From Candidatus Auribacter fodinae (GTDB taxonomy: Bacteria; Auribacterota; Auribacteria; Auribacterales; Auribacteraceae), in the NCBI GenBank assembly GCA_003599815.1, contig QZJZ01000005.1, positions 33,410 to 97,409 on the forward strand: a stretch of 64,000 nucleotides of DNA. Direction: 5' to 3'. The notes beneath the pieces are model-generated. The model did no database searches and was not told the origin of the DNA. It saw only the letters and a list, made by a program, of their open reading frames with translations. Position 1 is the stretch's first letter. Every line of letters begins with the position of its first letter. Both the position numbers and the translations under genes were made by a program. This document shows positions 15,701 through 53,339 of the stretch, in pieces.

Positions 15701-17630
15701 CTGAGCCGTCAATTAGGCGCACGACTTCCAGAACCGTGCCTGTAGACGCGCTGTCCGAGTCGAAATTATCGGCTGATGTAGTGTAATCGACGAAAACGGT
15801 TTCTTTGATTTTCGAGTGCGGGTCGGTGATTACCAGCTCTGCTATGATCCTGTTTCCCACAAAGCTCACGGAATCAACGGATATCAATGTATCATACTCA
15901 GCTGTTCTCAGCGCGGTGTTTATGGCGGAACGTATGGTTTCCTGAATATGGTCGCGCAAAGCGAGCCTGAGCGACAGGGGGTACTTCTGCAATTCGTTCT
16001 GTATGTAACTGTTTAAGAGCGTAGAGGTGAACAGGAGTTTCATCTTTTGCGACAGGGCTGTCTTGACCGCCGGATCAGCCAGCGATTCCGTTGCCAGCCA
16101 TGATGCGATTTTCAGACTGCTGACCTGAGGAGCCATAACCTGTTCCAGAGGGGTCATGTAGTTGGACAACAGAGAAAAATACGGGATCGGTTTTTCGTTA
16201 TGCGCGGCATTCGGGGTAATCACCACATACGATATATTTTTCTCTGCCAGCATTTTTGTTATTCCGTCGGAATGATACCCTCCCGCTATCAGAACAGCGG
16301 CGTCCTGTTTGTTTTGTTCCATCACTCTGAAGGTGTTGCGCACCAGATCGTTTTCCCGCGCGCTTGCGGATGAGTAAAAGAGCTCGTAGTTTTCGAGTTC
16401 CGCAATAATAATTGGTAGATCTATATTCAGATCGGGCATCAGCGCTGATATTGATTTCAGGATTGACTCATGGTTCACTGTTTTGAGGGCTGCTATTTCT
16501 TCCTGCGATATGGTAATAGCCGCAAGATGTTGTATAAGAGTGATATATCGTGCTATATCGTAAATTTGCCGTTCTTTCTCGTTAGATATCAGGGCGGCAT
16601 ACACTTTTGAGCGAAGCTCTTCTTCTTCACGCAGAATTGCGGTGTTGTCGAATGAATCGTATGCCTGAAGGTACGCGCAGAACTTGTTGAAATGCGCGTA
16701 TACGGAGGTATCCATGCTGTTTTCGTTCATCAAACCAGAAAGGATCGTGTGGTATTCGAGAGGCGCGATGGTGTTTGTTTTGAAGCGTAGTTCTTGTTTG
16801 AAAAGATGTTCGCTCTGTTCGGGATCAAGGCGCTCAATAAGTTTGTTAAGTATTTCTGCACGTTCTGTATCTGCCTTTTGAAAATCGAGTTCCGATTCCA
16901 TTTGTGACAATGACATCAGTATAGAGAAGTTCGTCAGGTTCGCATATTCCACGAGGTTTTCATCAGCGGCGCGTGCGAGTTTGCGGCAGTAATCGAGAAA
17001 AATGTCCTGATTCGCAAGAAACTGGCTGACCAGTGAGTCGAACTGCTTTAGTTTCTTTGAATAGATGTTGTCTTTCAGCTCCTCGAGACGGATACTGACC
17101 GCACTGAGCAGGTTTTCCAGCTGGCTGTGCCCCTGTTCAGCACGTTGGTATGAAATGATGTTGGCGTTATACAATGCAGGGGTCTCGATGCCATGTAAAG
17201 AAAATAACTGCTCATTTTCGTTGCCGGAGTTGCGGATAATTGAAATGTATTCAGATCCGTCGATTTTGCCGTTCCTGAGAAAATAATCAGACACGGTTTC
17301 CTTCGTTTTCGTGTTTGGAAAACGGGAAAATTCACTGGTGTCTATTAGTCCGGCGGCGCCTTCCACGCAGACCAGATTGATGTTGTATTGCGTGTTGAGG
17401 TGTTCCAGTATGCGGGCGAGATTTTTTTGCGCGCCGTAGTTGGTATGGTTATCCTGAATATGAATAATGAGTTTGTTATCCGCCTGATGCTGTCCGTTTA
17501 CCGACCCGTACTGGTGCGGTATTTTTATATCGCCGGCAGATACCCGTGCGTTATTTTGATCCGCCAGAACCGGGGCACAAAAAATAAATTCCGCCACGAT
17601 CAGGCAGAGAATAAAAGGCCGTCTGAGCAT
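9771..17630 (-). CDS. Giant (2619 aa) secreted protein: TraB/GumN-like N-terminal domain plus at least five tandem ~234-aa A/B repeat pairs with sigma-70 region-4-like HTH segments
   Basis: Signal peptide MLRRPFILCLIVAEFIFCAPVLADQ. AAVLIAGGYHSDGITKMLAEKNISYVVI matches the TraB/GumN C-terminal GxxH motif. Type-A repeats (D[FY]TFLLN.IEGG.Y.FPL ... LPEDEQVMLYLKYKRGVIHEDIGNLLGISRSVAHKRIERL) start at aa ~1285, 1517, 1750, 1987 and 2221. Type-B repeats (DFSFL...DQIILYMR.Y...P.GGGKG) alternate at aa ~1384, 1619, 1852 and 2089. Confidence 0.8.
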   Translation of the reverse strand: MLRRPFILCLIVAEFIFCAPVLADQNNARVSAGDIKIPHQYGSVNGQHQADNKLIIHIQDNHTNYGAQKNLARILEHLNTQYNINLVCVEGAAGLIDTSEFSRFPNTKTKETVSDYFLRNGKIDGSEYISIIRNSGNENEQLFSLHGIETPALYNANIISYQRAEQGHSQLENLLSAVSIRLEELKDNIYSKKLKQFDSLVSQFLANQDIFLDYCRKLARAADENLVEYANLTNFSILMSLSQMESELDFQKADTERAEILNKLIERLDPEQSEHLFKQELRFKTNTIAPLEYHTILSGLMNENSMDTSVYAHFNKFCAYLQAYDSFDNTAILREEEELRSKVYAALISNEKERQIYDIARYITLIQHLAAITISQEEIAALKTVNHESILKSISALMPDLNIDLPIIIAELENYELFYSSASARENDLVRNTFRVMEQNKQDAAVLIAGGYHSDGITKMLAEKNISYVVITPNAAHNEKPIPYFSLLSNYMTPLEQVMAPQVSSLKIASWLATESLADPAVKTALSQKMKLLFTSTLLNSYIQNELQKYPLSLRLALRDHIQETIRSAINTALRTAEYDTLISVDSVSFVGNRIIAELVITDPHSKIKETVFVDYTTSADNFDSDSASTGTVLEVVRLIDGSVQEFINYRGYSQYIRKINQIQMSILGLLSTHPYSVEGLLPELEYDMYQLDLTSQDISALLDSLAETGLASRDIHGTYSLANSLVPRYTTYLLVNAHKNNAPIALRPKGLPTDLRLLTDHFNPRLNHISIDFSLDLKDIHHALSSVIRILYENIGDDRGSIAVLQMELSKVRNVHVLRSADDKELAVRISPAVSTAPVRVPQQRVTPEQTQAQKEKQTWIAAGNGDTEAIEQLVNQYHALALETARSRHSLSRAWRARYITTGDIDQEGYLALLTSIHTQRTEEELDRILSEFGSFPAFVEEEVRIGIARFYADDTLKSNLHYTGSRLTDLDGTYDDSGKSKENIVMRDLDPLANDELEDMELRMEREDTEDINLTHQQAFFDGILSNLLSTEQRDMLRVYRNADTHRDGINAVKEAFHIETGEITHLINTLAKANEVFLNYDRFQRYLPFLDKQEQDVFGLFKNGKITAAQLAGAMSVTEEDAALYLKNIVFKFHYFDLLERLRANEDFGFLRAFILPDYTEKIPQGLTDEQLKQVFDSLMFEDKFLLFSAYDQGLKPIALSNILPFAEVSIRQRMRIAISTFNKAMVLFQPDKEYDPFEYADTVKRQAYNGTYPFTFKMTAPVSVISAPVTNFESISLEGINDYTFLLNLLPAGAPYLPDNDQLKSFFNQLPAEMQKLAYIFFAKRMTYKEIQDIHPLHLSKINKAFSDLREQMLDFMMGETSSGYFPGLNEYSEKIAVLSDFSFIDNLLAEGAHSPEENEAAFRALSFSDQIILYMRYYQKLPLRGWLNGIERQIAGRFQTLTARIDAAKEHLQQAISLYTQEYDDNPSAFSALLHSKIYAGIDQPPMVFKVDIPAEEHSLDPQALRDEIAGITDFSFLLNAIEGGLYRFPLDAVQQAMLGDVFTKELTYNEQVILYLHYHYQMPIARISAVTGWKKTILFVTQKINRLVQQRQAGREQSVSVFEQYRDSITQLSDFNWLAALAPKPDEVDPEMLEPVFRSMSFADQIILYMRVYLNMPNGGGKGVWDTLFTSDNAELPFNEAARQRFVDALFLFAQYPDPARLPARLNEHFYTGVPVFPIVFRDDMRTDMEPVGKDTIQQEINDLDDFTFMLNSLEGGLYTFPLSDEFQSMLKDLFFNEFTPEEQLQMYLRNKQGATLKSVRSLTGKILTTPYLQSKVTRLVRQWIENGTSQRQSTSEYFTEQISGITDFSFLRAVPAVAEKEFTDTMLELAFKLLSYQDQVILFMKHYEKRPVSGGDGVFNLIRIASSGWQKETQNAESRLMETINVILSEKFDSTDDMMLAVNRRIYRGADPFILLFKDDAMESGTPVSQKRIYEETRELDDYTFLLNLIEGGMYTFPLNDQTQSILRDIFTKNLNIQDRKILYLRLKKQMPAKEIEALFHTSAELAPYMSLFTDQLRKRLYPQYTAQSLMSEYSDKIAGLDSFEFMTRIPELHELPFDNSVYKRAFYALSLEDQFFLFLKFHENMPFGGKGISNILTTNDTNAKKYVESASANALMALNIAWEDESHDSASIARAMNEMAYRKSKRFPLIFREDTGAAYSSKKETVSELATVRDFTFLLNIIEPGVFTAPLSVSANKTLDGFFRSLPEDEQVMLYLKYKRGVIHEDIGNLLGISRSVAHKRIERLSAELTGRLLSSMANTKPEFTQQEVNSLFLSFSFNVPSSAALLNKYLSGGLSVLPDPAMLNKNAIFAVLVSPSLTPSERFIQSFTVADKLNMAPSQFAVLQYIIHKSIPSGDGAEIPVPDSLDMDVLMLDLDSTGMLPNTPEENMNMRKYLFISLFALMDTYTEKNKTLRFVLFSRNYTQRQITGMLGKSLYDTLISHGGRVVDKEAFDWFAMSSQTPNRDIMADIIRTYDISSPQLKLASNNTELLQEAGLAGVVSVSGIKTLAFALFLFSDLAAEQIEELTVNSQPFNEYTDSHQLGAFTLSGTTIGRKILRLRSASPAIDTSL
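10730..14480 (-). repeat. Tandem protein-coding repeat array inside the giant gene, about 700-bp period (A+B units) with at least five copies
   Basis: Amino-acid periodicity 1517->1750->1987->2221 (233-237 aa). Copies have diverged and are not identical at the DNA level. Confidence 0.6.
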
Positions 17631-18484: not shown

Positions 18485-21160
18485 TCAGACGCCGATAACT
18501 CTGGCTACTTCTTCCGATAACTGGTTTATCATGTAAGGTTTCTGAACGTATCCGCTGGCGCCGTTGTTGAGTATTTCCTGCGCTTTGCCGTCTTTGCCGT
18601 ATCCGGTGGATAGGATAGCCTTTACGCCCGGATTGATTTTTTTCATCGCGTCGAAACAGTCCTTGCCGTTTATTTCCGGCATAACCATGTCAAGGAGTAC
18701 GAGGTCGATTTCATCAGCGTGCTCTTGGTAATACTCCAGCGCTTCTTTTGCGTTGGAAAAGCTGACGACTGTATAGCCGATATACTGGAGCATCTCGCAG
18801 GCAACTTCACGCACGAACTTTTCGTCGTCGACGATAAGTATTGTGCCTGATCCCGATACGATACCTTCAGACGTGTTAGCCCGAGCTGTTTCCTTCGCCG
18901 CCGGGGCGACAGGGAAATAGAGTTTGAATACGGATCCTTCGCCGGGTTCGCTGTACACAGATATCGAACCGCCGTGGTTTCGTACGATACCGTATACCAT
19001 AGCCAGTCCCATGCCCGTGCCTTCACCTTGTTTTTTTGTGGTGAAGAACGGCTCGAAAATGCGTTGCTGGATTTCTTTGCTCATGCCGCATCCGGTATCT
19101 GATACGGATAGTACGAGAAAGTCGCCTTTTATCGCGCCGGGATGGCGTTTGCAGTATTCGCTGGTCAGGGTAACGTTTTCGGTTGAAAACACCAGTTCTC
19201 CGCCGTCCGGCATGGCGTGCTGTGCGTTGAGCGACAGATTGATGAGGATTTGCTGAATCTGGCCCGGGTCACCAAGTATTGCCGGCCGGGTTGCTCGAAG
19301 GTCGCTGGACATGACGACTTTTTTATCGACGGTGCGCGCCATAAGTGTCACCGCTTCCTTGATACTCTCGTTCATATCCACGGTTACGATCTGGAATTTG
19401 CCTTTGCGGGCGAATCCGAGAAGCTGTTGAGTCAGGTCGCGGGCCCGTTTCGCGGCATTCTCGATGGTCTGAGCGGAGCGGTAAACGGTTTCTTCCGGTT
19501 TTGTGGTCATGGTGATAAGGTTGGCGTATCCGAGTATTCCGGTCAGAATATTGTTGAAGTCGTGAGCGACGCCGCCGGCAAGCTGTCCGATGGCTTCCAG
19601 CTTTTGCGCCTGTGTGAGCTGTTCTTCAAGCGCTTTGAGCCGCGCAATGTCGGTAATTACATTTGCGAGGTATAGAGGTTCGTTCTGGTTGTTATAGATA
19701 ATGAAGCTGTTCTGAATGGTGGGTATGACTCTGCCGCTGATCGATTTGATATTCACTTCGCCAGTCCATTGCCCCTGTTCCAGTGTAACGGGTATGATTT
19801 CGTTTTCAAGAAGAGCGAGTTCGTTTTCATCGTAGAAACAGCGGATATTTTTGCCCATGAGTTCAGCGGTAACCACCGCGTCAAGCATTTCAACCATCGC
19901 GGGATTGCAGTAGGTGATAGTGCCGTTCAGTTCAGCCATCCTGAATCCGACAGTGGACAGTTCAGCGAACTTTTTGAATATGGCGAGCTGTTCTTCGGTT
20001 TTTGCCCGTTCGGTGATTTCCTGTTGCAGGTGTATATTGCTTGCATTCAGCTCCTGTGTCCGCTCGGCGACCAGTTCTTCAAGGTTATCCCTGTGCTGTT
20101 TCAGGCTGTTCTGTGATTCAGTGAGGTCTTCCAGCAGAGTGTTGAACGATCGTGCGAGTGTCTTGAACTCCTGATATTTTATGCGCGATTCATTGATTGA
20201 CGAGCATGAAGGATCCTGAGCGATAGCAGACGCCTGATCCGCCATAGCCCGCAGTGGTTCGCTCATTCGTGTAGCTATCAATGAGGCGACCAGCAGGCTC
20301 AGGATAATTACCACTGTGCCCAGCCCGGCGAATACCAACGTAAGGTGCCTTCGTTTCGCGTAGAGCGGTTCATTTGACGCGGCGTATACTACCCCGGGAA
20401 AATTACGTACCGGAATGAATACGGAATTGCGATTTGCCAGATGTGAATCTAACTCGTTGTCGTCAATACTGTTGAAATTTTTAAGCATTCGCCGGCTGAA
20501 AACGCTCTTGAGATGCGTATTTGTTTTGAGGTCGCGAATGGTATCGTTGTTTTTGTGAAGCAGTGACGCGTCATGTTTTTCTTCAAATTTTTGCCAGAAC
20601 TCCTGATCCTCCGCGATAACATATACGGCGAATGCCATGCCGAGGATGGAATCTTTCTGCATGATGGGTATGGAGTACAGGCTGATATACTTACCGTGGC
20701 ACTGGTGAAACTCTTTTTTAGACAAATTGTTATTGGATAGATTTTTTAAACACTTTGAAACGTTGCTTAAATGTTCCGGTATTTCCGGGATAAAGCGGTT
20801 GAAAGACGGTTCGTGGACAAAAAAGTAGATTCCATTGTGAGGATGGTACTGTTTTTCCAGTTGCTCTTCAACTTGCTGTTTCATGCCGAGCAGGAGGCTT
20901 ACCTTGATGGAGTTGTCAAACGCGAGGTTGCGAAGCTGGGTGTCGATCAGGTTGGTCTTTGTTTGGAGAACAATACTGATGTCGGATTCGTCAAGATGCA
21001 GTTTTTTATGGAAATCGCTGGATATGCTCTGGCTCAGTATTCCGTACAGAATGCCGAATATGAGGGCGAGAGTGATAGCGACGAACGTCACCATTACGCC
21101 TATCAGGTATGATGAGAATTTCTGGTTATGAGTGTTGTTAGGCATATCCGTATTCCGCAA
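18485..21160 (-). CDS. Hybrid sensor histidine kinase / response regulator with periplasmic sensor domain, HAMP, PAS, HisKA, HATPase and REC
   Basis: Two TM segments flank a ~230-aa periplasmic region. H-box GVAHDFNNILTGILGY, then N/G boxes. C-terminal ILIVDDEKFV...DLVLLDMVMP is a receiver domain. Confidence 0.9.
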   Translation of the reverse strand: MRNTDMPNNTHNQKFSSYLIGVMVTFVAITLALIFGILYGILSQSISSDFHKKLHLDESDISIVLQTKTNLIDTQLRNLAFDNSIKVSLLLGMKQQVEEQLEKQYHPHNGIYFFVHEPSFNRFIPEIPEHLSNVSKCLKNLSNNNLSKKEFHQCHGKYISLYSIPIMQKDSILGMAFAVYVIAEDQEFWQKFEEKHDASLLHKNNDTIRDLKTNTHLKSVFSRRMLKNFNSIDDNELDSHLANRNSVFIPVRNFPGVVYAASNEPLYAKRRHLTLVFAGLGTVVIILSLLVASLIATRMSEPLRAMADQASAIAQDPSCSSINESRIKYQEFKTLARSFNTLLEDLTESQNSLKQHRDNLEELVAERTQELNASNIHLQQEITERAKTEEQLAIFKKFAELSTVGFRMAELNGTITYCNPAMVEMLDAVVTAELMGKNIRCFYDENELALLENEIIPVTLEQGQWTGEVNIKSISGRVIPTIQNSFIIYNNQNEPLYLANVITDIARLKALEEQLTQAQKLEAIGQLAGGVAHDFNNILTGILGYANLITMTTKPEETVYRSAQTIENAAKRARDLTQQLLGFARKGKFQIVTVDMNESIKEAVTLMARTVDKKVVMSSDLRATRPAILGDPGQIQQILINLSLNAQHAMPDGGELVFSTENVTLTSEYCKRHPGAIKGDFLVLSVSDTGCGMSKEIQQRIFEPFFTTKKQGEGTGMGLAMVYGIVRNHGGSISVYSEPGEGSVFKLYFPVAPAAKETARANTSEGIVSGSGTILIVDDEKFVREVACEMLQYIGYTVVSFSNAKEALEYYQEHADEIDLVLLDMVMPEINGKDCFDAMKKINPGVKAILSTGYGKDGKAQEILNNGASGYVQKPYMINQLSEEVARVIGV

Positions 21161-41035: not shown

Positions 41036-42016
41036 ATGTCGAAACCGAATATCAGTGTTGTCGTCCCTGCATATAATGCTGAGAAAACCATAGGGTTGTG
41101 TCTGGACAGCATTCTGCGGCAGAATTATCCGCAGGATAAAATGGAAGTCCTCGTTGTGGATAACAACTCCATGGATTCCACAGCTGAGATTATCAAATCA
41201 TATCCGGTTACGTATCTTTTTGAAGACAAAATACAGTCACCGTCAGGGGCTCGGAATAAAGGTATTGTCAACGCGCGGCATGGACTTATCGCGTTTATCG
41301 ACAGTGACTGCATCGCAGATGAACATTGGCTTGCGAATGGAATTACCTCGCTGGATGATGAATCTGTAGGTGCGGTAGGCGGTAAAATACTGGCATATAA
41401 ACCTGAAACATACATTGAAGAGTATCAGGACCGATCCGGTGTTCTGTGGCATGTGGTAAGCGATGAAGCGCACGCGAGGCGCGAGGCACGACTTGTTACT
41501 GCCAACGCTTTTTTCAGAAAAGATGTATTTGATACCCTCGGCTTATTCGACCTGCGGTACAAAGGGGCTGGCGAGGATACGGATATCTGTTACGCAATGT
41601 TGCGGCATACAAACTATAAATTGACGTATAACGAACATGCGCTCGTATGGCATAAGCACCGCACGAACCTCAGACAGTTTTGTAAGCAATACGTACGATA
41701 TGGCTATAACAATATGTTTTTGGATCAGAAATTCTATCCCGAAATAGTCAATGAGATGCACGAAAGCGCTGACAATCATGGAGTACTGCGCACCTTTTAC
41801 TGGCGTTTTTTGTACAGGGAAACATGCAGGGAGTGTTGTGCTGTATTCCCTGCGCTGGGTAGGTACCTTACATCGTTTAAACGGGCGGATAAAACTGCGT
41901 TGTTCGATTCTGTTTTATTCGCGTTAAGTAAAATTGCGTTTGTGCGCGGCGAAATAAGAGCTTTCAAAGAGATCCGCGCGGTACGGGAAAAGCTGACAGA
42001 GGACATCCGCCCATGA
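41036..42016 (+). CDS. Glycosyltransferase family 2
   Basis: ISVVVPAYNAEKTI...VLVVDNNSMDST...FIDSDC shows the GT2 DxD and associated motifs. Confidence 0.85.
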   Translation: MSKPNISVVVPAYNAEKTIGLCLDSILRQNYPQDKMEVLVVDNNSMDSTAEIIKSYPVTYLFEDKIQSPSGARNKGIVNARHGLIAFIDSDCIADEHWLANGITSLDDESVGAVGGKILAYKPETYIEEYQDRSGVLWHVVSDEAHARREARLVTANAFFRKDVFDTLGLFDLRYKGAGEDTDICYAMLRHTNYKLTYNEHALVWHKHRTNLRQFCKQYVRYGYNNMFLDQKFYPEIVNEMHESADNHGVLRTFYWRFLYRETCRECCAVFPALGRYLTSFKRADKTALFDSVLFALSKIAFVRGEIRAFKEIRAVREKLTEDIRP

Positions 42017-42975
42017 CAATGCCGTTTGTCAGTGTCGTCGTCCCCGCCTACAACGCCGCCGCCACCATAGGGCAGTGCATAGAAAGCCTTATCAGCCAGA
42101 CATATCCAAAAGAAAAACTGGAAATACTCATTATTGACAATAATTCGTCCGATGAAACTGCTGATATTATCCGTTCGTACCCGGTAACGTATTTAAGCGA
42201 ATCGAACCAGTCGCGGTCAGCCGCGCGGAACAAGGGAATCAGGCATGCCCGGGGCGATATAATCGCGTTTACGGACAGTGACTGCGCGGCACAGCACGAC
42301 TGGCTGGAAAAAGGCGTTCAGCCGTTCGAGGATGAATGGATCGGCGGTGTCGGCGGGCCGATTCTCGCTTATAACCCGTCAACATGGATCGAACGCGCAC
42401 AGGATATCCTGCGCATATTTAATCAGGAAGAAACCATTTCTCCTGAGCGGGTGGAGGCAGGAACTGCTGTCATAGCCACTCCGAACGCGCTGTACCGCAA
42501 AGACGCCCTTCTTGCCGCGGGGTTGTTTGACGAGCGCCTGAAGGGAGCTGAAGATTATGACCTGAGCTACAAAATCCAGCGCATAACAGATTACAGTTTC
42601 GCCTATCAGCCTGACGCGATCACCTATCACCGGCACGCTCAGACCTTTGAAAAAGTGGTAACTCAATATTTTCGTTACGGTTATGCCTACATGGAATGCG
42701 AAGAGCAGAAAGAGTGCCTTGTGAAGCTTGATGAGAGTATCCGCGCCCACGGCTTGGCGCGGGTGGTTTACTGGAAAATCCTGCAGTACCGTATTCCGGC
42801 AAACCTGAAGAGATGTGTGTCGTACGGTTTGAAATATCTGTTCTCCCTCAGGCAGGATACGAAACAGTATCTTGAGTTATCATTTTTGGATTGCGTTCAG
42901 CAGGCGGCGTTTCTGGCTGGAGAAATGCAGTCGTATATGGTTAATCGGGTTCGGCTCAGGGAAAACAAGAATTAA
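42013..42975 (+). CDS. Glycosyltransferase family 2, tandem paralog
   Basis: VSVVVPAYNAAATI...ILIIDNNSSDET...FTDSDC. The start overlaps the previous stop (ATGA). Confidence 0.85.
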   Translation: MTMPFVSVVVPAYNAAATIGQCIESLISQTYPKEKLEILIIDNNSSDETADIIRSYPVTYLSESNQSRSAARNKGIRHARGDIIAFTDSDCAAQHDWLEKGVQPFEDEWIGGVGGPILAYNPSTWIERAQDILRIFNQEETISPERVEAGTAVIATPNALYRKDALLAAGLFDERLKGAEDYDLSYKIQRITDYSFAYQPDAITYHRHAQTFEKVVTQYFRYGYAYMECEEQKECLVKLDESIRAHGLARVVYWKILQYRIPANLKRCVSYGLKYLFSLRQDTKQYLELSFLDCVQQAAFLAGEMQSYMVNRVRLRENKN

Positions 42976-45033: not shown

Positions 45034-45576
45034 TTATTTCTTTTTCGGCCTGCTGAGCATAACCAGCCAGAACAGAGCCAGTATTACCACACTGCCTACC
45101 ACGTAGGGCTGGGGCACAGCCAGCAGTTCGGGCAACAGTATGTTCTGAACCTGATATCCCTGTTTCAGTATCGGGTCGATGACATACACTATAAGAGCCA
45201 TGCCCGGGATAAACGAGAGAAAGACCACAAAAAACAGCAGGTTCCCTTCTCCCATCTGGCGCAGTGTGCCGAGAATGCACCCGCCGTTCAGAAGAATTCC
45301 CGCTCCGAAGATCATACCTGAAATAATGTTATAAAAACCGTACCCGCGCAGTTGCCCGATCGGTTTAAGGCCAAGTTCCGGCGCGATGAATTTCGAAAGA
45401 TAAAATCCGAGCGTTGATATGATAAATATCACCAGAAAAATGCGCAGAATGCGTTTTCCTTTGCCCATATAAATTTCACCAAGCCCGTGCGCGAAACAGA
45501 TACCGGCTTTCTGGACAAAGAAACCGAATCCGATGCCGAACAGGAACCCGTATAGTAAAAGCAATTTAAAGTCCAT
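45034..45576 (-). CDS. YeeE/YedE-family sulfur-compound transporter half, second
   Basis: Four TM segments and a GGCILG motif. Pairs with the upstream half. Confidence 0.6.
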   Translation of the reverse strand: MDFKLLLLYGFLFGIGFGFFVQKAGICFAHGLGEIYMGKGKRILRIFLVIFIISTLGFYLSKFIAPELGLKPIGQLRGYGFYNIISGMIFGAGILLNGGCILGTLRQMGEGNLLFFVVFLSFIPGMALIVYVIDPILKQGYQVQNILLPELLAVPQPYVVGSVVILALFWLVMLSRPKKK

Positions 45577-45589
45577 GATAGTGATCTCC

Positions 45590-46027
45590 TTATGACTGAG
45601 ACTTTATTGTCAGGCGGTACACGATAAACCCGCCAGCGAACATGCCGGCTATTGACAGCATGGACGATATTGATAACATCGGCAATCCTATAACGAATGA
45701 TGTTGTACAGGTACCCGGGGCAAGGGTAACGCCGATTCCGATAAGGAACCCGCCAAGTATAGCGCGCGGCAGTACTTTTGCTGCCGGCATGCGCAGGGTG
45801 AATTCACGATTTGTGGCGGAACTTACCAACGCGCCGACAATAACGCCCATATTCACTATAAACGAGAAGAGAAATGTTTTGTTCGGCCCAAGTTTCCCCA
45901 CCATCGGGAGAAAACTGCTTCCGCCTATCCAGAATTTATGTATGACGAAGTACATGATGACATTCAGAACCGCGAATGCCCCCGCATACATCAGTGTCGG
46001 GTTAAAGAATCCTTTTTTTTCTGCCAT
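45590..46027 (-). CDS. YeeE/YedE-family sulfur-compound transporter half, first
   Basis: TM protein with PGTCTTSF. Sits directly downstream of tusA. Confidence 0.6.
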   Translation of the reverse strand: MAEKKGFFNPTLMYAGAFAVLNVIMYFVIHKFWIGGSSFLPMVGKLGPNKTFLFSFIVNMGVIVGALVSSATNREFTLRMPAAKVLPRAILGGFLIGIGVTLAPGTCTTSFVIGLPMLSISSMLSIAGMFAGGFIVYRLTIKSQS

Positions 46028-46032
46028 GTTGA

Positions 46033-46257
46033 TTATCCTTCTGTGTTTGTTATTATTACTTCCCAGTAATCATTGTTCTTTTTTATGTTGATATCCAGAT
46101 ACTCGAATTCTTCAAGTTCTTCAGGAATTGACCTGATAGCGAGAGGGTCGTCAACAAGGAACACCTTGCATTCTCCGGATTCCATGACCTCTACACGCTG
46201 GACAACCTCAATAATGGGGAACGGGCAGAATTTGCCCCGAAGGTCTGTGCTTTCCAT
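46033..46257 (-). CDS. tusA: TusA-like sulfurtransferase
   Basis: 74 aa with the CPFP (CPxP) active-site motif near the N-terminus. Confidence 0.7.
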   Translation of the reverse strand: MESTDLRGKFCPFPIIEVVQRVEVMESGECKVFLVDDPLAIRSIPEELEEFEYLDINIKKNNDYWEVIITNTEG

Positions 46258-46723
46258 TTTGTACCTCTTTACGCAAATTAGGTTGTTTAAAATCAGATAT
46301 TTAATATATCGAACATTGTCGTTTAAAATTTACATAAAAATGGCATTTGCCTTGATGAGGTGTATATAAATCGCACTGCTGAGGCCGTTATCTCTGATGT
46401 TGGGTAACCTTCAGAAATGCAAAGAGATATTTATAGCGGACTCAATTCAGCGAATGCGATAAAATTACCGGACAGATTGACACATAATAAAACACCAACG
46501 CATGAGCGTACTGCACATAGCATAACAGTGGTTGCCGCCGAGCATGACACTGTCCATGCATCTACTTGTACTTTTTATGCCTAATTTATGCGAAAGCCAG
46601 CCATTAAATTGATTTTTATACAACGTTCTGTTGTTAAATTCTAACTATGACAATAATATACTAAAGTGTTTATGGTTTTGTGTCGCTCAATGGTGTAACG
46701 CATCATCGAAAGGAGATATACGT

Positions 46724-47266
46724 ATGGATTGCCCTAAATGTGTCGGAACACTGGAAAAACAGGAACTTGTCGGTATAGCTATTGATGAATGTTGCATGTG
46801 CGAAGGCATCTGATTTGACGCAGGCGAACTTGAAGATGTGATAAAGCGCGATTCCGAAAATTTCGAGTACATAGATGTTGGACGTGAACAGTTTGACGGC
46901 AAGGAGTTCTCTGACCTTGCCGGGCAATTGAACGAAAAACTGGGAAAATGCCCCCGGTGCGGTGACTGTACAGTATTGCTTAAAAGTGAGTATAAGAATG
47001 ATAAATGCCCTGTTATTATTGATATATGCCCTCATGGGCACGGAGTATGGCTTGACGGCGGAGAAATCCTTCAGCTTCGTAAGCGGGGGTTGGTTAATGC
47101 GTGTGACAAAGCGGAATTTTATATGGATTTCATTGGTTATATATTTTCCAAAGACGGGTTTAACGATGCTGTAAGAGGCACAGCCCGCATAATACGCAAT
47201 CTCATCGAGAAGCTCAAATACAACGACGGCCTCACCAAAGAAACCGCCATGGAAAAAGAAGAGTAA
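46724..47266 (+). pseudogene. Double zf-TFIIB-type zinc-ribbon protein interrupted by an in-frame TGA (46811-46813) at the conserved Trp of the first zinc ribbon
   Basis: RBS AAAGGAG before ATG 46724. MDCPKCVGTLEKQELVGIAIDECCMCEGI-TGA-FDAGELEDV continues in frame to 47266. It then contains an intact second ribbon CPRCGDC...CPHGHGVWLDGGEIL, in which W occupies the position of the TGA. Confidence 0.5.
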
Positions 47267-47376
47267 AAAAAGTCTTTAGAGTACGAATGAATGTTTTTTA
47301 CTGAGGATAAAAGAAAAGCAGGGCCAACGAATTCGGCCCTGCTTTTTGTATATATAAAACCCAGAGGAGGAGAGGA

Positions 47377-47931
47377 CTATTCCATATCGCCCGGTTCCGG
47401 CGCTTCAGGCGCGTCCGGTTCTTCGTCAGGAGGTGCCATGTGGCGTCGCCGTTCGTGTCTCATCTTGCGTAATTCCTTGCGCGCTTCATGTTTTACATCC
47501 ATCTTATATTTCAGGGCGGCGTACTGTTCCGGAGTGAGGACTTTTTTCATCTCAAGCACGCTGTTAATGCGGTCTGTGATCAATTGTTTCTGCACGGATG
47601 CGAGTTCGTCAGCCAGCGTATTAAGCGCAGTCTGATCTGATTCCGGTTTATCAAGTTCGTTTTTGATTTGTTTATGGAGTTCGCGTTTTTTCTCGTAAAG
47701 CGCCTGTTTCTGTTCCTGTCCCTGTTTGCGCATTTCGGCGAGCCGTGCTGTTTGTTCGTCGCTCAGATCGAGTTCACGCATAATTTCTTCGATGTCGTCT
47801 TTCATTTTACCGTGCCGTTTTCCGTATCCGCCCGGCCCTTTCTCGTCGCAGAAATCCTGTGCCGGGGCAAATTCTGCCGCTGATAATAACAGGGCTGATA
47901 TCATCCATATTGATAAGGTTCGCAGTTTCAT
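47377..47931 (-). CDS. Periplasmic Spy/CpxP-family (LTXXQ) protein
   Basis: Signal peptide. LSDEQTARLAEM and LTPEQYAAL are LTXXQ motifs. Coiled-coil, with a P/E-rich C-terminus. Confidence 0.7.
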   Translation of the reverse strand: MKLRTLSIWMISALLLSAAEFAPAQDFCDEKGPGGYGKRHGKMKDDIEEIMRELDLSDEQTARLAEMRKQGQEQKQALYEKKRELHKQIKNELDKPESDQTALNTLADELASVQKQLITDRINSVLEMKKVLTPEQYAALKYKMDVKHEARKELRKMRHERRRHMAPPDEEPDAPEAPEPGDME

Positions 47932-48016
47932 GTTTGTGTCTCCTTAATACTATAATTAATCTTTCAGTGTGGCGCCATTCACTAGTAATAACAAATCCCG
48001 CATCGCAAAAGTTCCG

Positions 48017-48517
48017 TTACATGAAAAAAACTTCAATGACAGAATCAAACTCGTCATCCGCTTCTGTTTCTGATTCGGACTGCTGTACGCCATTATCGGA
48101 AAATAGATAACTGGTTTGCTCGCTGATGTAATCGCCTGCTTCTTTGCTGTATTCAGGTGACGATGTCATCATAAAAAATACAAGAGATGCCGCTATGGCT
48201 GAAGCTATCGCTGTGTATGCCGGACGAGGTATATGCGTAATGAATGCCAGCCTGCCCAGCAAGCCGGTTGGTGTCTGCTGTTTATTTTCCTGCTCGATAC
48301 GATCCCTGATCGAGTTCCAGAGGCTTTCCGGCGGTTCGGCTTGCGGCAGTTTGTGTTCTGCTAAAGGCTCTACGGCGTATCGTTGAAAATCAGCGGCAAA
48401 TTCGCGGCATACTGCGCATTGTTTGAGGTGTGACTTAACCTGTTTCCTGATGTCCTCGGATGCGTGCCCGTCATGGTAATCTGTTAATATAAGATCTTGT
48501 ATGTCATTACATTTCAT
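48017..48517 (-). CDS. Anti-sigma factor (zf-HC2 type) with one TM segment
   Basis: HLKQCAVCREF is a zinc-finger anti-sigma motif. One central TM helix. Overlaps the sigma gene stop. Confidence 0.6.
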   Translation of the reverse strand: MKCNDIQDLILTDYHDGHASEDIRKQVKSHLKQCAVCREFAADFQRYAVEPLAEHKLPQAEPPESLWNSIRDRIEQENKQQTPTGLLGRLAFITHIPRPAYTAIASAIAASLVFFMMTSSPEYSKEAGDYISEQTSYLFSDNGVQQSESETEADDEFDSVIEVFFM

Positions 48518-49076
48518 GGCTCAAACCCTCATGTAATTGTTTTCCGGCAGTCATCATCTGCTCGCGCGCCCGTTTGAGGCGTGAGCGAACGGTGTTGATG
48601 TTTATGTCAAGAATCGAGGCGATTTCGTCGTACTGGAACCCGTGTATTTCTCTGAGCACGATACATTCTTTCTGGTGCGGGGAGAGTGAGTCCAGTATTT
48701 TTCCGAGTACCGTCTGGTGATGCTCCAGCTCGATTACGTTGTCGAGTTCAGGAGCGATGCGCATTGTGTCGAGTGGTACTGAATTATCCTCGCGCTGTTG
48801 TATCCGTGCTCTTTTTTTGACGAAATTGATCGATTCGTTGTTAATTATCCGGTACAGCCATGCTTTAAACGATGTGCCCGGCTGGTAGGCGCTGAGGTTC
48901 CTGTAAACTTTAAGGAACACGTTTTGCGATGCCTCTTCTGCATCGTGAGCGGATCGGGTAATACCGAGCGCAACGTTATACACAAATCCTGCGGTTGCCC
49001 TGTAAATAGCCTCAAACGAGGCGATGTCGCCCTGCGCGGCTTGTGTTATGGTCGATTCGTCGATCATTAGTTCCAT
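48507..49076 (-). CDS. ECF (sigma-24/RpoE-like) RNA polymerase sigma factor
   Basis: Region 2 (FLKVYRNLSAYQ...WLYRIINNESINF) and region 4 (LSPHQKECIVLREIHGFQYDEIASILDININTVRSRLKRAREQM). Confidence 0.85.
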   Translation of the reverse strand: MELMIDESTITQAAQGDIASFEAIYRATAGFVYNVALGITRSAHDAEEASQNVFLKVYRNLSAYQPGTSFKAWLYRIINNESINFVKKRARIQQREDNSVPLDTMRIAPELDNVIELEHHQTVLGKILDSLSPHQKECIVLREIHGFQYDEIASILDININTVRSRLKRAREQMMTAGKQLHEGLSHEM

Positions 49077-49501: not shown

Positions 49502-50188
49502 ATGAAACAGCGCGGATTTATGTTAATCGCTATGTGCCTGCTGGGTATCTACTGTTCGACTGCCGATGCAGAGTCAGTCATTTTACAGCCTGAAGCGGCG
49601 GATGGTAAAAACAGTTATGTGCATTCCAATGTCGCCTCATACCCCATGGGACCCGGGCCAACGATCTATTCTTCAAGAGGTTATGCCGGTTATACCTCAT
49701 ATTCTTTGATCGAATTTGATTTATCCTCAATAGTAATCCCGACAACCGCCACTATAGAATCCGCGGTCATGGGAGTGTATGTCAGCGAAAAGTACGGAAG
49801 TGTATCCAGCGGAGTCAATGCGTACAGAATCACGTCAGCATGGACAGAATCAGGTGTTACATGGAACAATCAGCCTTCAGTGGATACCTCAGTCGCGATT
49901 CTGAATTCCGGCGGATTAGTATCGTCTGTCGGCTGGGTAGAATGGGATATAAAAAGTTTTGTGGAAGGATGGCTTGATACCCCGTCAACCAACTTCGGTG
50001 TTGAGTTAAGAAATATTGTGTCTGGATCGCAATTCGCGTATCATTCGTCAAATCAATCCAACTATCCGGCATACCGCCCGACACTGACAATAACGTATAC
50101 TGAGCAAGTCGTTGTACCTGAACCGCTGTCCATGATACTGCTGGGGTGCGGGCTGACTGCTTTGTATTGTAGAAGAAGCAAAAAATAA
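49502..50188 (+). CDS. PEP-CTERM sorting-domain protein with DNRLRE-like beta-sandwich domain
   Basis: Signal peptide. YSLIEFDLSS...YRITSAWTESGVTWNNQP matches the DNRLRE/CBM96-like pattern. C-terminal VPEPLSMILLGCGLTALYCRRSKK. Confidence 0.75.
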   Translation: MKQRGFMLIAMCLLGIYCSTADAESVILQPEAADGKNSYVHSNVASYPMGPGPTIYSSRGYAGYTSYSLIEFDLSSIVIPTTATIESAVMGVYVSEKYGSVSSGVNAYRITSAWTESGVTWNNQPSVDTSVAILNSGGLVSSVGWVEWDIKSFVEGWLDTPSTNFGVELRNIVSGSQFAYHSSNQSNYPAYRPTLTITYTEQVVVPEPLSMILLGCGLTALYCRRSKK

Positions 50189-50422
50189 CCCGATAATTCT
50201 TCAATCGTATTCCTTGATGGGCCGCTTTTTTAAAGGTGGTTCCAGCCGAAGCTGTCAATTGCGAACGAACGCAGGTTGTTCAGCGCTTTCATACGATGTC
50301 CGCGCATTGATCTTTTCGGCGCTTCGTTCTATGCTGAACTTGCGATAATCATTGACACGTCTTACACACTGGTTGATAATTTATCTTTTTCATGAGCGTA
50401 AAATTATCATAAAGGGAAAGCT

Positions 50423-51748
50423 ATGAAATTGCATCATACCTATGACTGCTTAAAACGTATGAATCCGGTACGCTTAGTAGCGTTGGGTTATATGTCATAT
50501 ATTTTTGTAGGGTTTGCTCTGTTATGCCTGCCGTTTATGCACCGGAACGCTGTCTGTGCTCTTGATAACCTTTTCATTGCCGCCTCCGCAGTATCAACGA
50601 CCGGGTTAACAACGGTTGCTGTAAATGAGGCTTATAATTTCTGGGGACAGTTGGTTATCCTTATTTTAATTCAATTAGGAGGTATAGGATATATGACCTT
50701 CAGTTCTTTTGTGATTTTATCCAGCAAAAAATATCTGGACGACAGGAAAAAAGATGTTGCCCATGTCGTGTTTAGTATACCAAGAAATTTTAAGATCGAA
50801 AAATTCATTTTAAGTGTTATTCTGTTTTCTATTGTAGTTGAGGCTGTTGGGGCGATAGGCTTATTTTTTGTATTCCTGCGTGAAGGTATACAACATCCTC
50901 TCTGGAATGCGATATTTCACAGTATCTCAGCGTTTTGTACGGCAGGTTTCAGTCTTTTTCCAAACAGTTTCGAGGGAATGTCCGCTAACTTCGGGCTTAA
51001 TGCAATTATTTCCGTATTGAGTATACTGGGCGCCATGGGGTTTATTGTATGTGTGGACGTGTGGCGCCTTATACGCGGGAAAGAGAAACATGTGACATTA
51101 ACTACGAAAGTCATTATTTCCATGACGCTCTGGTTGTTATGTATAGGCGGGGTTTTGATGTTTCTGACAGAATCCTATGGCGAGGGCGTTACTCCGGCGA
51201 ATAAACTGTTGTTCTCATTTTTTCAATCGATGACAGCGCTCACCACAGTGGGGTTCAACACGGTTACTGTCAGCACGTTGTCAAAATCGGCAATAATGCT
51301 GATCTGCATATTGATGATTATCGGCGCATCGCCTTCAGGTACGGGCGGCGGGTTGAAAACGACTACATTTTCAGCTATCTGGGGGTTGATGAAAAGTACT
51401 ATTAAAGGTGATAATGATGTCCGTATTTTCGGCGGGAAAGTGCCTGACGACCGGGTAAAGACCGCTGTGGCGACGCTCAGTTTATATATCTCGATGCTTC
51501 TTTTTGGAACGTATCTGCTTACACTGACAGAAAACGGGCAATTTCTGGATATTTTTTTCGAGTCGGCATCCGCTTTGGGAACTGTCGGGCTCAGCATGGG
51601 GCTTACTGCAGCGTTGACCTCGTTAGGAAAGATTGTAATAATCCTGATGATGTACATTGGGCGTGTCGGCCCGTTGACCTTCGGTATGGCTTTATATGTG
51701 AAACCGGAACTAATTTTTGACGACGCCAAAACCGATCTTGCCGTTTGA
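50423..51748 (+). CDS. TrkH/KtrB-family K+ transporter
   Basis: Repeated GxG selectivity-like loops (GTGGGLKTTTF) and 441 aa typical of the TrkH fold. Confidence 0.85.
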   Translation: MKLHHTYDCLKRMNPVRLVALGYMSYIFVGFALLCLPFMHRNAVCALDNLFIAASAVSTTGLTTVAVNEAYNFWGQLVILILIQLGGIGYMTFSSFVILSSKKYLDDRKKDVAHVVFSIPRNFKIEKFILSVILFSIVVEAVGAIGLFFVFLREGIQHPLWNAIFHSISAFCTAGFSLFPNSFEGMSANFGLNAIISVLSILGAMGFIVCVDVWRLIRGKEKHVTLTTKVIISMTLWLLCIGGVLMFLTESYGEGVTPANKLLFSFFQSMTALTTVGFNTVTVSTLSKSAIMLICILMIIGASPSGTGGGLKTTTFSAIWGLMKSTIKGDNDVRIFGGKVPDDRVKTAVATLSLYISMLLFGTYLLTLTENGQFLDIFFESASALGTVGLSMGLTAALTSLGKIVIILMMYIGRVGPLTFGMALYVKPELIFDDAKTDLAV

Positions 51749-51786
51749 TTTCATAAGGAGAGCGCTGGTATCTTTCCTGTCCCTGC

Positions 51787-53124
51787 TCAGATAATTTCTT
51801 CTTCCGGTTCGGTTGCAAAATCCTGAAGAACCTGATCCTCCACCTGATCAAAACGGATGTTCCATTTAGAAATTATATATTTTACCAAAGTCGGCACAGG
51901 TATGGTGGTGAGTATTGAAAGGCATACGATAGAGTTGAAAAATTCAGGTCTTATCATTTTGAGATGCAGAGCCACATTAGCCGCCGCGAGAGTCGCGGAC
52001 AGTTGCGGTACGGTCATCAATCCTGCACAAATACCTTTTGCGTTATTGAATCCTGATAGCCGCATGGCAACCCAACCCGATACTATTTTACTTGCGGTGA
52101 GCCCTACAAATGTCAGGACGACCATGGCGATATTTTCCCACGCGTTGAATAAAATTTTTAAATCCGTATTCATACCTATGGTCAGGAAAAGGAATGGAAC
52201 CAGAAAACCGTATCCCATTCCTTCGATTTTCCGGTGGAGGATCCGGTCGTTGTCATGAAATCCGGGCGCACGGACAATTGCCATACCAGCGACAAAAGCG
52301 CCAACAATGACACTAACGCCAATGAATTCGCCCACCAGAACAACTGCGAGTACGCCCACCAGAAAGAATGTCAGCCTCGAATCGTCGCTGTGATGTATCC
52401 GGGAAAAAACTTTCTGGGCAATAACGGGAATCAGCCACATGGATAACACGATGTAACCAACAATCGCTATAATAAATAACACAAAAAACCATGAACCCAG
52501 TGCAGACGGGTCAATATGGTCAAAAATGGAAACGCTTCCGGGAATGCTTAGCGATGTTGAATGACGGCTCATTTGAATACAAACTGCCAGTAACACAAGG
52601 CTGGCGAGATCCGTTATGACAGTCGATGCCAGCACGGCAATGCCGAAACGCGTCCGGGTTACTTTCAATTCCCTGATTACGGGAAAAACAATGCCGACAG
52701 AATGAGACGCGAACAAAGAAGCGTACACCAGTTTGCCGATCGTATGCCCGGGCTCAAAGAAAGCATAAACAAAATAACCTGCAAGTGCAGGTATCGCAAA
52801 GGTTAAAACACTCAGCCATGCAACGGCCTTCCGTTCAAGGCGCAGGACAGAGAGATGAACTTCCATGCCTGCCAGCACCATAAGAAATATAAGCCCCAGA
52901 AGGCCAAGTACGTTTAAAACAAGATAAATATCGGCGGTCGGGTATCCTCGTCCCAGAAAATAATTGAGCTTTCGGATAACATCAAGCATATTCGGGCCAA
53001 TAACTATCCCAACCATCATCATTGAAACAACGGAAGGGATGTGAAACCGCCGCAACAGCGCCGGTACTATGGCGGTCAGCGCCATGAGAAACATAAACAT
53101 AATCAAAAAGGTCAAACCGCTCAT
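51787..53124 (-). CDS. CPA2-family cation:proton antiporter (Na+/H+ exchanger-type) lacking a C-terminal RCK domain
   Basis: 445 aa, about 12 TM segments. N-terminal FHIPSVVSMMMVGIVIGPNML is typical of the Na_H_Exchanger fold. Confidence 0.75.
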   Translation of the reverse strand: MSGLTFLIMFMFLMALTAIVPALLRRFHIPSVVSMMMVGIVIGPNMLDVIRKLNYFLGRGYPTADIYLVLNVLGLLGLIFLMVLAGMEVHLSVLRLERKAVAWLSVLTFAIPALAGYFVYAFFEPGHTIGKLVYASLFASHSVGIVFPVIRELKVTRTRFGIAVLASTVITDLASLVLLAVCIQMSRHSTSLSIPGSVSIFDHIDPSALGSWFFVLFIIAIVGYIVLSMWLIPVIAQKVFSRIHHSDDSRLTFFLVGVLAVVLVGEFIGVSVIVGAFVAGMAIVRAPGFHDNDRILHRKIEGMGYGFLVPFLFLTIGMNTDLKILFNAWENIAMVVLTFVGLTASKIVSGWVAMRLSGFNNAKGICAGLMTVPQLSATLAAANVALHLKMIRPEFFNSIVCLSILTTIPVPTLVKYIISKWNIRFDQVEDQVLQDFATEPEEEII

Positions 53125-53339
53125 CGAAAACTCCAGCTTAAAGTGGTAAAAAGACTTGTAAATAGTTGTTTATTAAAATATTCCGCTGTTAAAAGGTAAT
53201 TGTCGGAATTATAACGAATGACTGAGTATCGCCCAGCTTGTTTCGCCGGAATAATCAAAAACCGTGAGTGTCATTATATGACAACCTCCGTAAACCGCAT
53301 ATTAAAAAAATATTAAAAGACTCATAATATTGTGTGATA

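What the first reader, a model, noticed from the sequence alone, without database searches (positions are those of the whole stretch)
46724..47266. In-frame TGA exactly at the conserved tryptophan of a zf-TFIIB zinc ribbon
A well-positioned RBS and ATG at 46724 start a frame reading …CPKCVGTLEKQELVGIAIDECCMCEGI, then TGA, then FDAGELEDV…. It continues uninterrupted to 47266 through a second, intact zinc ribbon (…CPHGHGVWLDGGEIL…). In the intact copy the residue aligned with the stop is Trp (GVWLD).

TGA is used as a genuine stop elsewhere in the window, for example at the end of 4522-6366. Global UGA-to-Trp reassignment (codes 4 or 25) is therefore unlikely. The remaining explanations are: (a) a recent TGG-to-TGA nonsense mutation giving a pseudogene or split gene, (b) a sequencing or assembly error, or (c) low-level UGA readthrough by tRNA-Trp, the most common near-cognate suppressor.
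Basis: seen in the sequence. Interest (0 to 1): 0.55.

Follow-up and report, generated by a model that had tools for sequence, protein, structure and literature searches.

The report
Recent nonsense mutation in zinc-ribbon gene
A small two-zinc-ribbon gene of the uncultured mine bacterium Candidatus Auribacter fodinae carries a single G-to-A change that turns an invariant tryptophan codon into a stop, while a 97%-identical sister strain still has the intact gene, so this is an ordinary recent knockout and not a recoding signal.

Summary
ORF 46724-47266 (+) has a good RBS and ATG, an in-frame TGA at 46811-46813, and stays open to TAA at 47266. Both sides of the stop belong to one protein, a two-domain PF13453 (Zn_ribbon_TFIIB) protein.

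The stop sits on Trp30, which is invariant in 78 homologues. In 80 species-representative genomes that codon is TGG (70) or TTY (14), never TGA.

[quoted passage not shown] The TGA is present in a second JGI assembly that is 100% identical over 6.4 kb. A sister strain with 97.4% nucleotide identity and the same gene order (GCA_040756935.1, plus a Logan contig) has TGG and an intact 180-aa gene.

TGA is a normal stop here. It ends 13 of 40 long ORFs, with domain-complete C-termini and ATGA gene overlaps. There is no SECIS-like hairpin, no Rfam hit and no other TGA-interrupted gene in the window.

Verdict: a real, recent, lineage-specific TGG-to-TGA nonsense mutation, giving a pseudogene or a strongly hypomorphic allele. 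Any residual full-length protein would come from ordinary near-cognate tRNA-Trp readthrough, and nothing suggests this is programmed. Low interest.

The parts
46647..46676 (+). Candidate sigma-70-like promoter (ATGACA, 18-nt spacer, TATGGT) upstream of the gene. This is only a weak consensus match.
   Evidence: 9 of 12 matches. Five such sites were found in the scanned region against 3.0 expected, so it is not significant on its own.
46710..46715 (+). Shine-Dalgarno sequence AAGGAG, 8 nt upstream of the ATG.
   Evidence: Read directly.
46724..46810 (+). Codons 1-29. They hold the first zinc ribbon's four Cys ligands (C3, C6, C23, C26) and the first two beta strands. Termination at the TGA would release this 29-aa peptide.
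   Evidence: The structure model of the 82%-identical orthologue places strands at residues 9-15 and 18-23.
46811..46813 (+). Premature stop codon TGA at the invariant Trp30 codon. The A at 46813 is derived; the sister strain and the outgroup have TGG.
46814..47266 (+). Still-open remainder of the gene (codons 31-180 plus TAA). It contains the rest of ribbon 1 (FDAGELEDV helix), a linker, the intact ribbon 2 (C76, C79, C102, H105/GVWLD) and C-terminal helices.
   Evidence: It has no further stop or frameshift relative to the sister strain.
46838..47266 (+). The 142-aa ORF that JGI and NCBI annotate (GTG start; RJP62073.1 'hypothetical protein C4541_00640'). It is a gene-caller artefact of the truncation and at best a reinitiation product. 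No good SD precedes it, only AGG 13 nt upstream.
   Evidence: sequence read.
46967..46967 (+). Second derived non-synonymous change in the window copy: GGT to TGT (G82C), just after the CxxC of ribbon 2. Gly is present in 14 of 21 outgroup sequences.
47214..47214 (+). Third derived non-synonymous change: CGC to CTC (R164L) in the poorly conserved C-terminal tail.
47314..47346 (.). Bidirectional intrinsic-terminator hairpin (14 pairs, 7 of them G-C, T/A runs on both sides). It lies between the zinc-ribbon gene and the convergent LTXXQ gene.

Best explanation
A single G-to-A transition at 46813 changed the invariant Trp30 codon TGG to the stop codon TGA. It occurred in the Ca. Auribacter fodinae SURF_26 population after that population split from a sister strain of about 97% identity.

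RF2 terminates at this UGA and releases a 29-residue peptide. That peptide has the four Cys of ribbon 1 but lacks the third strand (IWFD) and the following helix, so the normal 180-aa two-ribbon protein is not made in normal amounts. The allele is therefore a young pseudogene or a severe hypomorph.

Any full-length protein that is still made would arise from the ordinary, unprogrammed competition of Trp-tRNA(CCA) with RF2 at UGA. That event would restore exactly the wild-type residue.

Shown here: the mutation, its polarity, its uniqueness, its reproducibility in two assemblies, and normal use of TGA as a stop. Inferred: loss of function, and the low readthrough level.
For: Homology across the stop:
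- The frame and stop are as described, and PF13453 matches across the stop.
- W30 is invariant in 25 and then 78 homologues.
- In 80 GTDB species loci the codon is TGG x70, TTY x14 and TGA x0.
- A degenerate CEGI-TGA-FDA pattern scan of metagenome contigs gave 11 hits, none in a family member.

Sister strain:
- L094 (GCA_040756935.1) and L095 (SRR29635779) are 97.4-97.7% identical over 12.6 kb and 5.3 kb, with the same gene order. They carry TGG and an intact 180-aa gene.
- The 12 codon differences are 9 synonymous and 3 non-synonymous. All 3 non-synonymous changes are derived in the window, judged against outgroup L002.

Reproducibility:
- The TGA is reproduced in the JGI 3300007352 contig (L001), 100% identical over 6429 bp, and in the 109,948-bp MAG contig held by JGI 3300038436 and NCBI.

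TGA as a normal stop:
- It ends 13 of 40 long ORFs.
- Genes 4522-6366 and 18485-21160 end 5-6 residues after complete terminal domains.
- TGG makes up 1.02% of codons.

Timing:
- Omega for this gene is 0.08, against 0.13 for 13 neighbouring genes.
- A rough Poisson bound puts the neutral phase at less than about 0.33-0.47 of the time since the split. The mutation is therefore recent.
Against: - No reads were available, so the allele frequency in the population is unknown. The two assemblies may draw on overlapping read sets.
- The downstream 150 codons are fully intact and omega is low. That fits a very recent knockout, but it equally fits continued selection on a readthrough or reinitiated product.
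- Loss of function is inferred from invariance of W30 and its position in a confidently modelled strand (pLDDT about 90). It has not been measured.
Confidence: 0.85

Rival explanations
1. The gene is still functional despite the TGA. One route is appreciable UGA-to-Trp readthrough by tRNA-Trp, which would restore the wild-type sequence and turn the mutation into a down-regulated allele. The other is reinitiation at GTG 46838, giving a 142-aa protein that keeps ribbon 2 and the C-terminal helices.
For: - The 150 codons after the stop are intact, and omega (0.08) is no higher than in neighbouring genes.
- Trp-tRNA competes with RF2 at UGA, giving about 2-4% readthrough in an E. coli K-12 reporter (PMC10570021).
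- tRNA-Trp(CCA) variants with a 4-bp anticodon stem raise UGA readthrough and occur in diverse bacteria (PMC13092985).
- Single-ribbon PF13453 proteins exist, for example ZifS (8YOZ), which is 32% identical over 47 residues.
Against: - The stop is unique to this lineage.
- The context TGAT is the commonest tetranucleotide among this window's genuine TGA stops, 5 of 13.
- No stimulatory structure lies downstream: fold z-scores are +1.07 and +0.70, and Rfam finds nothing.
- No convincing SD precedes GTG 46838.
- All 78 aligned family members carry both ribbons, so a ribbon-2-only form is not a natural architecture of this family.
- Intactness and low omega are also what a very recent knockout would show.
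Confidence: 0.1
2. The TGA is a sequencing or assembly artefact, and the real genome has TGG.
For: - It is a single-base difference from the sister strain.
- It comes from a metagenome-assembled genome, and reads were not inspected.
Against: - The same base appears in two separately deposited assemblies. The 32,143-bp contig of JGI 3300007352 cannot be the window's source, and the other is the 109,948-bp MAG contig. They are identical over 6429 bp.
- Consensus contigs average many reads.
- The rest of the 12.6 kb compared with the sister strain shows no other premature stop or frameshift, only a 2-codon shift of one gene's natural stop. The assembly is therefore not generally error-prone.
Confidence: 0.04
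3. The UGA is programmed recoding: either selenocysteine insertion or a UGA sense codon under an altered genetic code (code 4 or 25).
For: - The neighbouring genes TusA and YeeE/YedE belong to families that have been linked to sulfur and selenium handling. That link is from my own knowledge and was not tested here.
- UGA-to-Trp reassignment is known in several bacterial lineages (PMC13092985).
Against: - Homologues have Trp or Phe at this position, never Cys, and the sister strain has TGG.
- There is no SECIS-like hairpin and no Rfam SECIS hit.
- TGA terminates 13 of 40 long ORFs at domain-complete ends, with ATGA overlaps at 42013 and 27670.
- TGG is used at a normal 1.02%.
- No other gene in 64 kb is interrupted by TGA. 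The only other look-alike, 61353/61035/60523, is two unrelated adjacent genes.
Confidence: 0.01

Closest known systems
Ordinary premature-stop (nonsense) allele or young pseudogene that differs between closely related bacterial strains
   Same: - It is a single transition creating a stop at a conserved codon.
- An intact allele exists in a sister strain of about 97% identity with identical synteny.
- The rest of the ORF is undecayed.
- Gene callers annotate only the downstream fragment.
   Different: Nothing substantive. The only special feature is that UGA's usual near-cognate reader is tRNA-Trp, so any leak-through would restore the wild-type residue.
PF13453 Zn_ribbon_TFIIB proteins; closest solved structure is ZifS (TTHA0897) of Thermus thermophilus, PDB 8YOZ
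   Same: Each half of the protein has the CxxC-x16-CxxC-G-[IVL]-W-[FL]-D-x-G-E-[LI] ribbon-plus-helix unit. Matches to 8YOZ: E=4.6e-6 by sequence and Foldseek probability 0.96, rmsd about 2 A over 47 residues.
   Different: - ZifS has one ribbon and is 82 aa. This family has two ribbons joined by a low-confidence linker, plus C-terminal helices, in 150-180 aa.
- The family is found mainly in Omnitrophota and related PVC-group MAGs.
- Its function is unknown: there is no NCBIfam model, no conserved neighbours and no literature found.
UGA-to-Trp decoding (genetic code 4; tRNA-Trp UCA or 4-bp-anticodon-stem tRNA-Trp CCA)
   Same: An in-frame UGA lies exactly where homologues have Trp.
   Different: There is one case in 64 kb rather than a genome-wide pattern. 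TGA is a normal stop in the same window, and the sister strain has TGG.

Membership tests
Two-ribbon PF13453 (Zn_ribbon_TFIIB) protein family | Pfam PF13453 match above the gathering score, in two copies | tested here: met
   E=1.8e-16, 59.7 bits against a cut-off of 22, two stretches, with W substituted for the stop.
Two-ribbon PF13453 (Zn_ribbon_TFIIB) protein family | Both sets of zinc ligands (C3, C6, C23, C26 and C76, C79, C102 plus a fourth ligand) and the G-x-W-[FL]-D-x-G-E motif after each ribbon | tested here: not met
   All Cys ligands and the second GVWLDGGE motif are present. The first motif's invariant Trp codon is TGA. By descent the gene is a family member, but it is a disrupted one.
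Nonsense allele / young pseudogene | Premature stop relative to full-length orthologues, with an intact allele in a close relative at the same locus | tested here: met
   P0122 (180 aa) in L094 and L095 has TGG, at 97.4% nucleotide identity and with the same neighbours. P0001 is 82% identical and full length.
Nonsense allele / young pseudogene | The stop is reproducible and not an assembly artefact | tested here: met
   The sequence is identical in the JGI 3300007352 contig and in the 109,948-bp MAG contig. Read-level support could not be tested.
Nonsense allele / young pseudogene | Relaxed selection after the stop (raised dN/dS, further disruptions) | tested here: inconclusive
   Omega is 0.08 against a background of 0.13 (Fisher p=1.0). 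All 3 non-synonymous changes fall on the window lineage, but p=0.125. There are no further stops or frameshifts. This is consistent with a very recent event.
Bacterial selenoprotein gene | UGA aligned with Cys or Sec in homologues | tested here: not met
   Homologues have W (70) or F (14) and never C. W is invariant in the close family.
Bacterial selenoprotein gene | SECIS hairpin immediately downstream of the UGA | tested here: not met
   Fold of 46811-46870: -7.8 kcal/mol, z=+0.70. Fold of 46800-46880: z=+1.07. No Rfam hit near the stop.
Bacterial selenoprotein gene | selA, selB, selD and tRNA-Sec present in the genome | not testable with these tools
   Only 64 kb is available. There is no tRNA in the window.
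UGA-to-Trp or UGA-to-Gly reassigned genetic code (4 or 25) | TGA is not used as a terminator, and in-frame TGAs are frequent in genes | tested here: not met
   - 13 of 40 long ORFs end in TGA.
- C-terminal domains are complete at those ends.
- There is only one TGA-interrupted gene in 64 kb.
- TGG makes up 1.02% of codons.
UGA-to-Trp or UGA-to-Gly reassigned genetic code (4 or 25) | tRNA with a UCA anticodon (or a 4-bp anticodon-stem tRNA-Trp) and loss or weakening of RF2 | not testable with these tools
   No tRNA or prfB gene lies in the window. The rest of the MAG could not be fetched.
Programmed stop-codon readthrough | The stop codon is conserved among relatives, with a leaky context or a stimulatory downstream structure | tested here: not met
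   - The stop is absent from the sister strain and from all other relatives.
- The TGAT context equals the commonest genuine TGA-stop context here.
- No downstream structure is present.

The most novel reading that the evidence does not exclude
The SURF_26 lineage tolerates this UGA because its tRNA-Trp reads UGA at an unusually high rate, for example through a 4-bp anticodon stem of the kind recently shown to promote UGA readthrough in bacteria. On this reading the gene is a functional, down-tuned allele and an early snapshot of ambiguous UGA/Trp decoding in a PVC-group phylum that still uses RF2.
Probability: 0.03. Interest if true: 0.5.

Novelty: already known. Interest (0 to 1): 0.1.

Why it matters
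It matters mainly as a clean negative. An in-frame TGA at a conserved Trp looks like a recoding signal, but here it is a strain-specific knockout of a small gene of unknown function.

Practical consequences:
- The public annotation of the type MAG of Ca. Auribacter fodinae (RJP62073.1, 142 aa, 'hypothetical protein') is a fragment of a disrupted two-ribbon PF13453 gene. It should be flagged as a pseudogene.
- The gene appears dispensable in that deep-subsurface population.

It does not bear on genetic-code evolution unless the full genome shows an unusual tRNA-Trp.

Tried and rejected
- **Selenocysteine.** Rejected: there is no SECIS-like fold, no Rfam hit, and homologues have W or F and never C.
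- **Code 4 or 25.** Rejected: TGA stops 13 of 40 long ORFs at domain-complete ends, and there is no tRNA in the window.
- **Recurrent TGA at this codon in other lineages.** A degenerate pattern scan of the JGI metagenome collection gave 11 hits, all out-of-context chance matches. That collection did not return the window's own contigs, so its coverage is incomplete. The 80 GTDB loci gave none.
- **Other TGA-interrupted genes in the window.** Eight stop-in-frame layouts with TGA exist by chance. The only other plausible one (61353/61035/60523, minus strand) is two distinct adjacent genes.
- **Naturally split orthologues, or a ribbon-2-only architecture.** None was found among 78 aligned homologues. 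Shorter database entries are fragments or lack only the C-terminal tail.
- **Relaxed selection as a dating tool.** This has too few substitutions to discriminate.
- **Function from gene context.** No neighbour is conserved across 18 family loci.
- **Function from the literature or curated models.** Nothing was found for PF13453, 8YOZ, ZifS or TTHA0897, and there is no NCBIfam model.
- **P0121 contig look-up.** Not on record.

Full report
**1. The observation**

AAGGAG lies at 46710-46715, followed by an 8-nt spacer and ATG at 46724. Twenty-nine codons read MDCPKCVGTLEKQELVGIAIDECCMCEGI. TGA follows at 46811-46813, and then 150 open codons run to TAA at 47264-47266.

With Trp in place of the stop, the product matches Pfam PF13453 (Zn_ribbon_TFIIB) at E=1.8e-16 in two stretches.

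The bare layout of a short ORF, one stop and a long open frame is not unusual. Nineteen such layouts occur in this window, eight of them with TGA. The case rests on homology that runs across the stop.

**2. Homology across the stop**

A search of 5.8 billion proteins found 215 relatives. Most are 150-180-aa proteins from Candidatus Omnitrophota and other PVC-group MAGs, and each has two ribbons in one chain.

- The Trp aligned with the stop is invariant in 25 sequences and in 78 sequences.
- In 80 species-representative genomes, the codon aligned to it is TGG 70 times, TTY 14 times and TGA never. The stops seen in those alignments are all natural C-termini.
- A degenerate DNA pattern for C-E-G-I-TGA-F-D-A returned 11 matches in the JGI metagenome collection. 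All were out of context and none was a family member. That collection did not return the window's own contigs, so it is not exhaustive.
- No natural split or ribbon-2-only form was seen.

**3. Whose genome it is, and whether the base is real**

The 142-aa ORF downstream of the stop (GTG 46838) is in the databases as RJP62073.1, 'hypothetical protein C4541_00640' of Candidatus Auribacter fodinae. This is MAG SURF_26 from deep mine fluid, the type of the phylum Auribacterota (PMC9324843).

The window is an exact part of a 109,948-bp contig held by JGI 3300038436 and NCBI. A second record, JGI 3300007352, carries the locus on a 32,143-bp contig. That contig is too short to be the window's source. 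It is 100% identical over 6429 bp, including the TGA.

An assembly artefact is therefore very unlikely. Read-level confirmation was not possible.

**4. The decisive comparison**

The same 90%-identity cluster contains a full-length 180-aa protein, MEW6536787.1 (P0122). Its contigs are L094 from GCA_040756935.1 and L095 from Logan SRR29635779. They are 97.4-97.7% identical to the window over 12.6 kb and 5.3 kb, and they have the same gene order: histidine kinase, two YeeE halves, TusA, the zinc-ribbon gene, LTXXQ, anti-sigma and ECF sigma.

In the zinc-ribbon gene the two strains differ at 12 codons, 9 synonymous and 3 not:

| Codon | Sister strain | Window | Change |
|---|---|---|---|
| 30 | TGG | TGA | W30 to stop |
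| 82 | GGT | TGT | G82C |
| 164 | CGC | CTC | R164L |

The 82%-identical outgroup (L002/P0001) agrees with the sister strain at all three. The changes, including the stop, are therefore derived in the window's lineage.

**5. How old it is**

Omega between the two strains is 0.08 for this gene, against 0.13 for 13 neighbouring genes (Fisher p=1.0). No further stops or frameshifts are present.

A rough Poisson argument limits any neutrally evolving phase to less than about 0.33-0.47 of the time since the two strains split. The family-wide relative-rate count, 5 window-derived against 2 P0001-derived changes, is not significant.

The knockout is therefore recent, or selection persists. The data cannot separate these two.

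**6. Recoding alternatives**

TGA is a normal stop in this genome.
- It ends 13 of 40 long ORFs, including ATGA overlaps at 42013 and 27670.
- Genes 4522-6366 and 18485-21160 end 5-6 residues after complete TylF and response-regulator domains.
- TGG makes up 1.02% of codons.
- No other gene in the 64 kb is interrupted by TGA. The one look-alike is two unrelated adjacent genes.

Nothing points to selenocysteine or a stimulated readthrough.
- The RNA downstream of the stop folds no better than shuffled sequence, with z=+1.07 and +0.70.
- Rfam finds nothing at gathering thresholds in the window, and nothing near the stop at permissive thresholds.
- Homologues never have Cys at this position.
- The tetranucleotide TGAT is the commonest context among this window's genuine TGA stops, 5 of 13.

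Selenocysteine, code 4/25 and programmed readthrough are rejected.

**7. Mechanism and consequence**

An AlphaFold model of the 82%-identical orthologue has mean pLDDT 75.8, with the ribbon regions at about 88-94. Residues 29-32 (IWFD) form the third strand of ribbon 1 and are followed by a helix at 35-45. Ribbon 2 repeats the pattern (strands 86-92, 95-101 and 107-110; helix 112-122), and C-terminal helices follow.

Termination at codon 30 would release a 29-residue peptide that has the four Cys but lacks the third strand and everything after it.

Reinitiation at GTG 46838 is possible in principle, but no convincing SD precedes it.

Background competition of Trp-tRNA with RF2 at UGA gives about 2-4% readthrough in an E. 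coli K-12 reporter (PMC10570021). Such an event would restore the wild-type residue, so the allele may be leaky rather than null. That is inference, not evidence of a programmed event.

tRNA-Trp variants with a 4-bp anticodon stem can raise UGA readthrough in bacteria (PMC13092985). The window contains no tRNA, so this could not be checked.

**8. What the gene does**

The function is unknown.
- The closest solved structure is the single-ribbon protein ZifS (TTHA0897, PDB 8YOZ), matched at E=4.6e-6 by sequence and Foldseek probability 0.96 over 47 residues.
- There is no NCBIfam model.
- No neighbour is conserved across 18 family loci.
- No literature was found.

**9. Verdict**

This is a real, recent, lineage-specific TGG-to-TGA nonsense mutation in a small two-zinc-ribbon gene of Ca. 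Auribacter fodinae. It is ordinary biology.

Interest is low. The residual novel reading, elevated UGA/Trp ambiguity in this lineage, has a probability of a few percent. It can be tested by inspecting tRNA-Trp and prfB and by scanning the full MAG for further in-frame TGAs.

Noticed in passing
window 9771-17630 (-): A giant 2619-aa ORF has almost no recognisable domains. The only hits are weak Sigma70_r4 / HTH matches around residues 2253-2294.
   Followed up: no
window 42013-42975 (+): This glycosyltransferase gene is far more diverged from the sister strain (92% nt identity, dS 0.30) than its 12 neighbours (dS 0.02-0.07). The JGI 3300007352 contigs break at this point. It looks like a strain-variable or recombined spot in a polysaccharide cluster (ABC-2/Wzt transporter plus glycosyltransferases).
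   Followed up: partly
window 45034-46257 (-): TusA (46033-46257) is followed by two half-size YeeE/YedE 'Sulf_transp' genes in the order C-half (profile positions 207-310) then N-half (2-151). This looks like a natural two-gene form and not a broken gene. The sister strain's first half-gene stops 2 codons earlier.
   Followed up: partly
window 50275-53336: The TrkH-like (50423-51748) and Na+/H+ exchanger (51787-53124) genes have no counterpart in the sister-strain contig L094. Its alignment jumps from window 50274 to 53337, and its last 127 bp repeat window 49836-49962. This is either a strain-specific indel or a contig-end artefact.
   Followed up: no
window 46258-46723: A long 466-bp intergenic region lies between the divergent TusA and zinc-ribbon genes. 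It is less conserved between strains (95.1%) than the coding sequence (97.8%) and has no Rfam match. Nothing suggests a structured RNA.
   Followed up: partly
window 47377-49076 (-): A convergent three-gene unit lies downstream: an ECF sigma factor (48507-49076), a zf-HC2 anti-sigma-like protein (48017-48517) and a periplasmic LTXXQ / Metal_resist (CpxP/Spy-like) protein (47377-47931). The last has the highest omega in the neighbourhood, 0.65, though on only 7 substitutions.
   Followed up: no
L024/L025 (JAZDHG010000010.1, Omnitrophota MAG): This contig carries at least two, and possibly three, copies of the two-ribbon family in tandem, at L025 2928-3524 and 4001-4444 and at L024 833-1279.
   Followed up: no
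window 46724-47266, codons 24, 82, 95, 127: The Auribacter proteins carry Cys at positions where relatives have F/Y, G, G/H and S/K. C82 is specific to the window copy, while C24, C95 and C127 are shared with the intact sister strain. No explanation was sought.
   Followed up: partly
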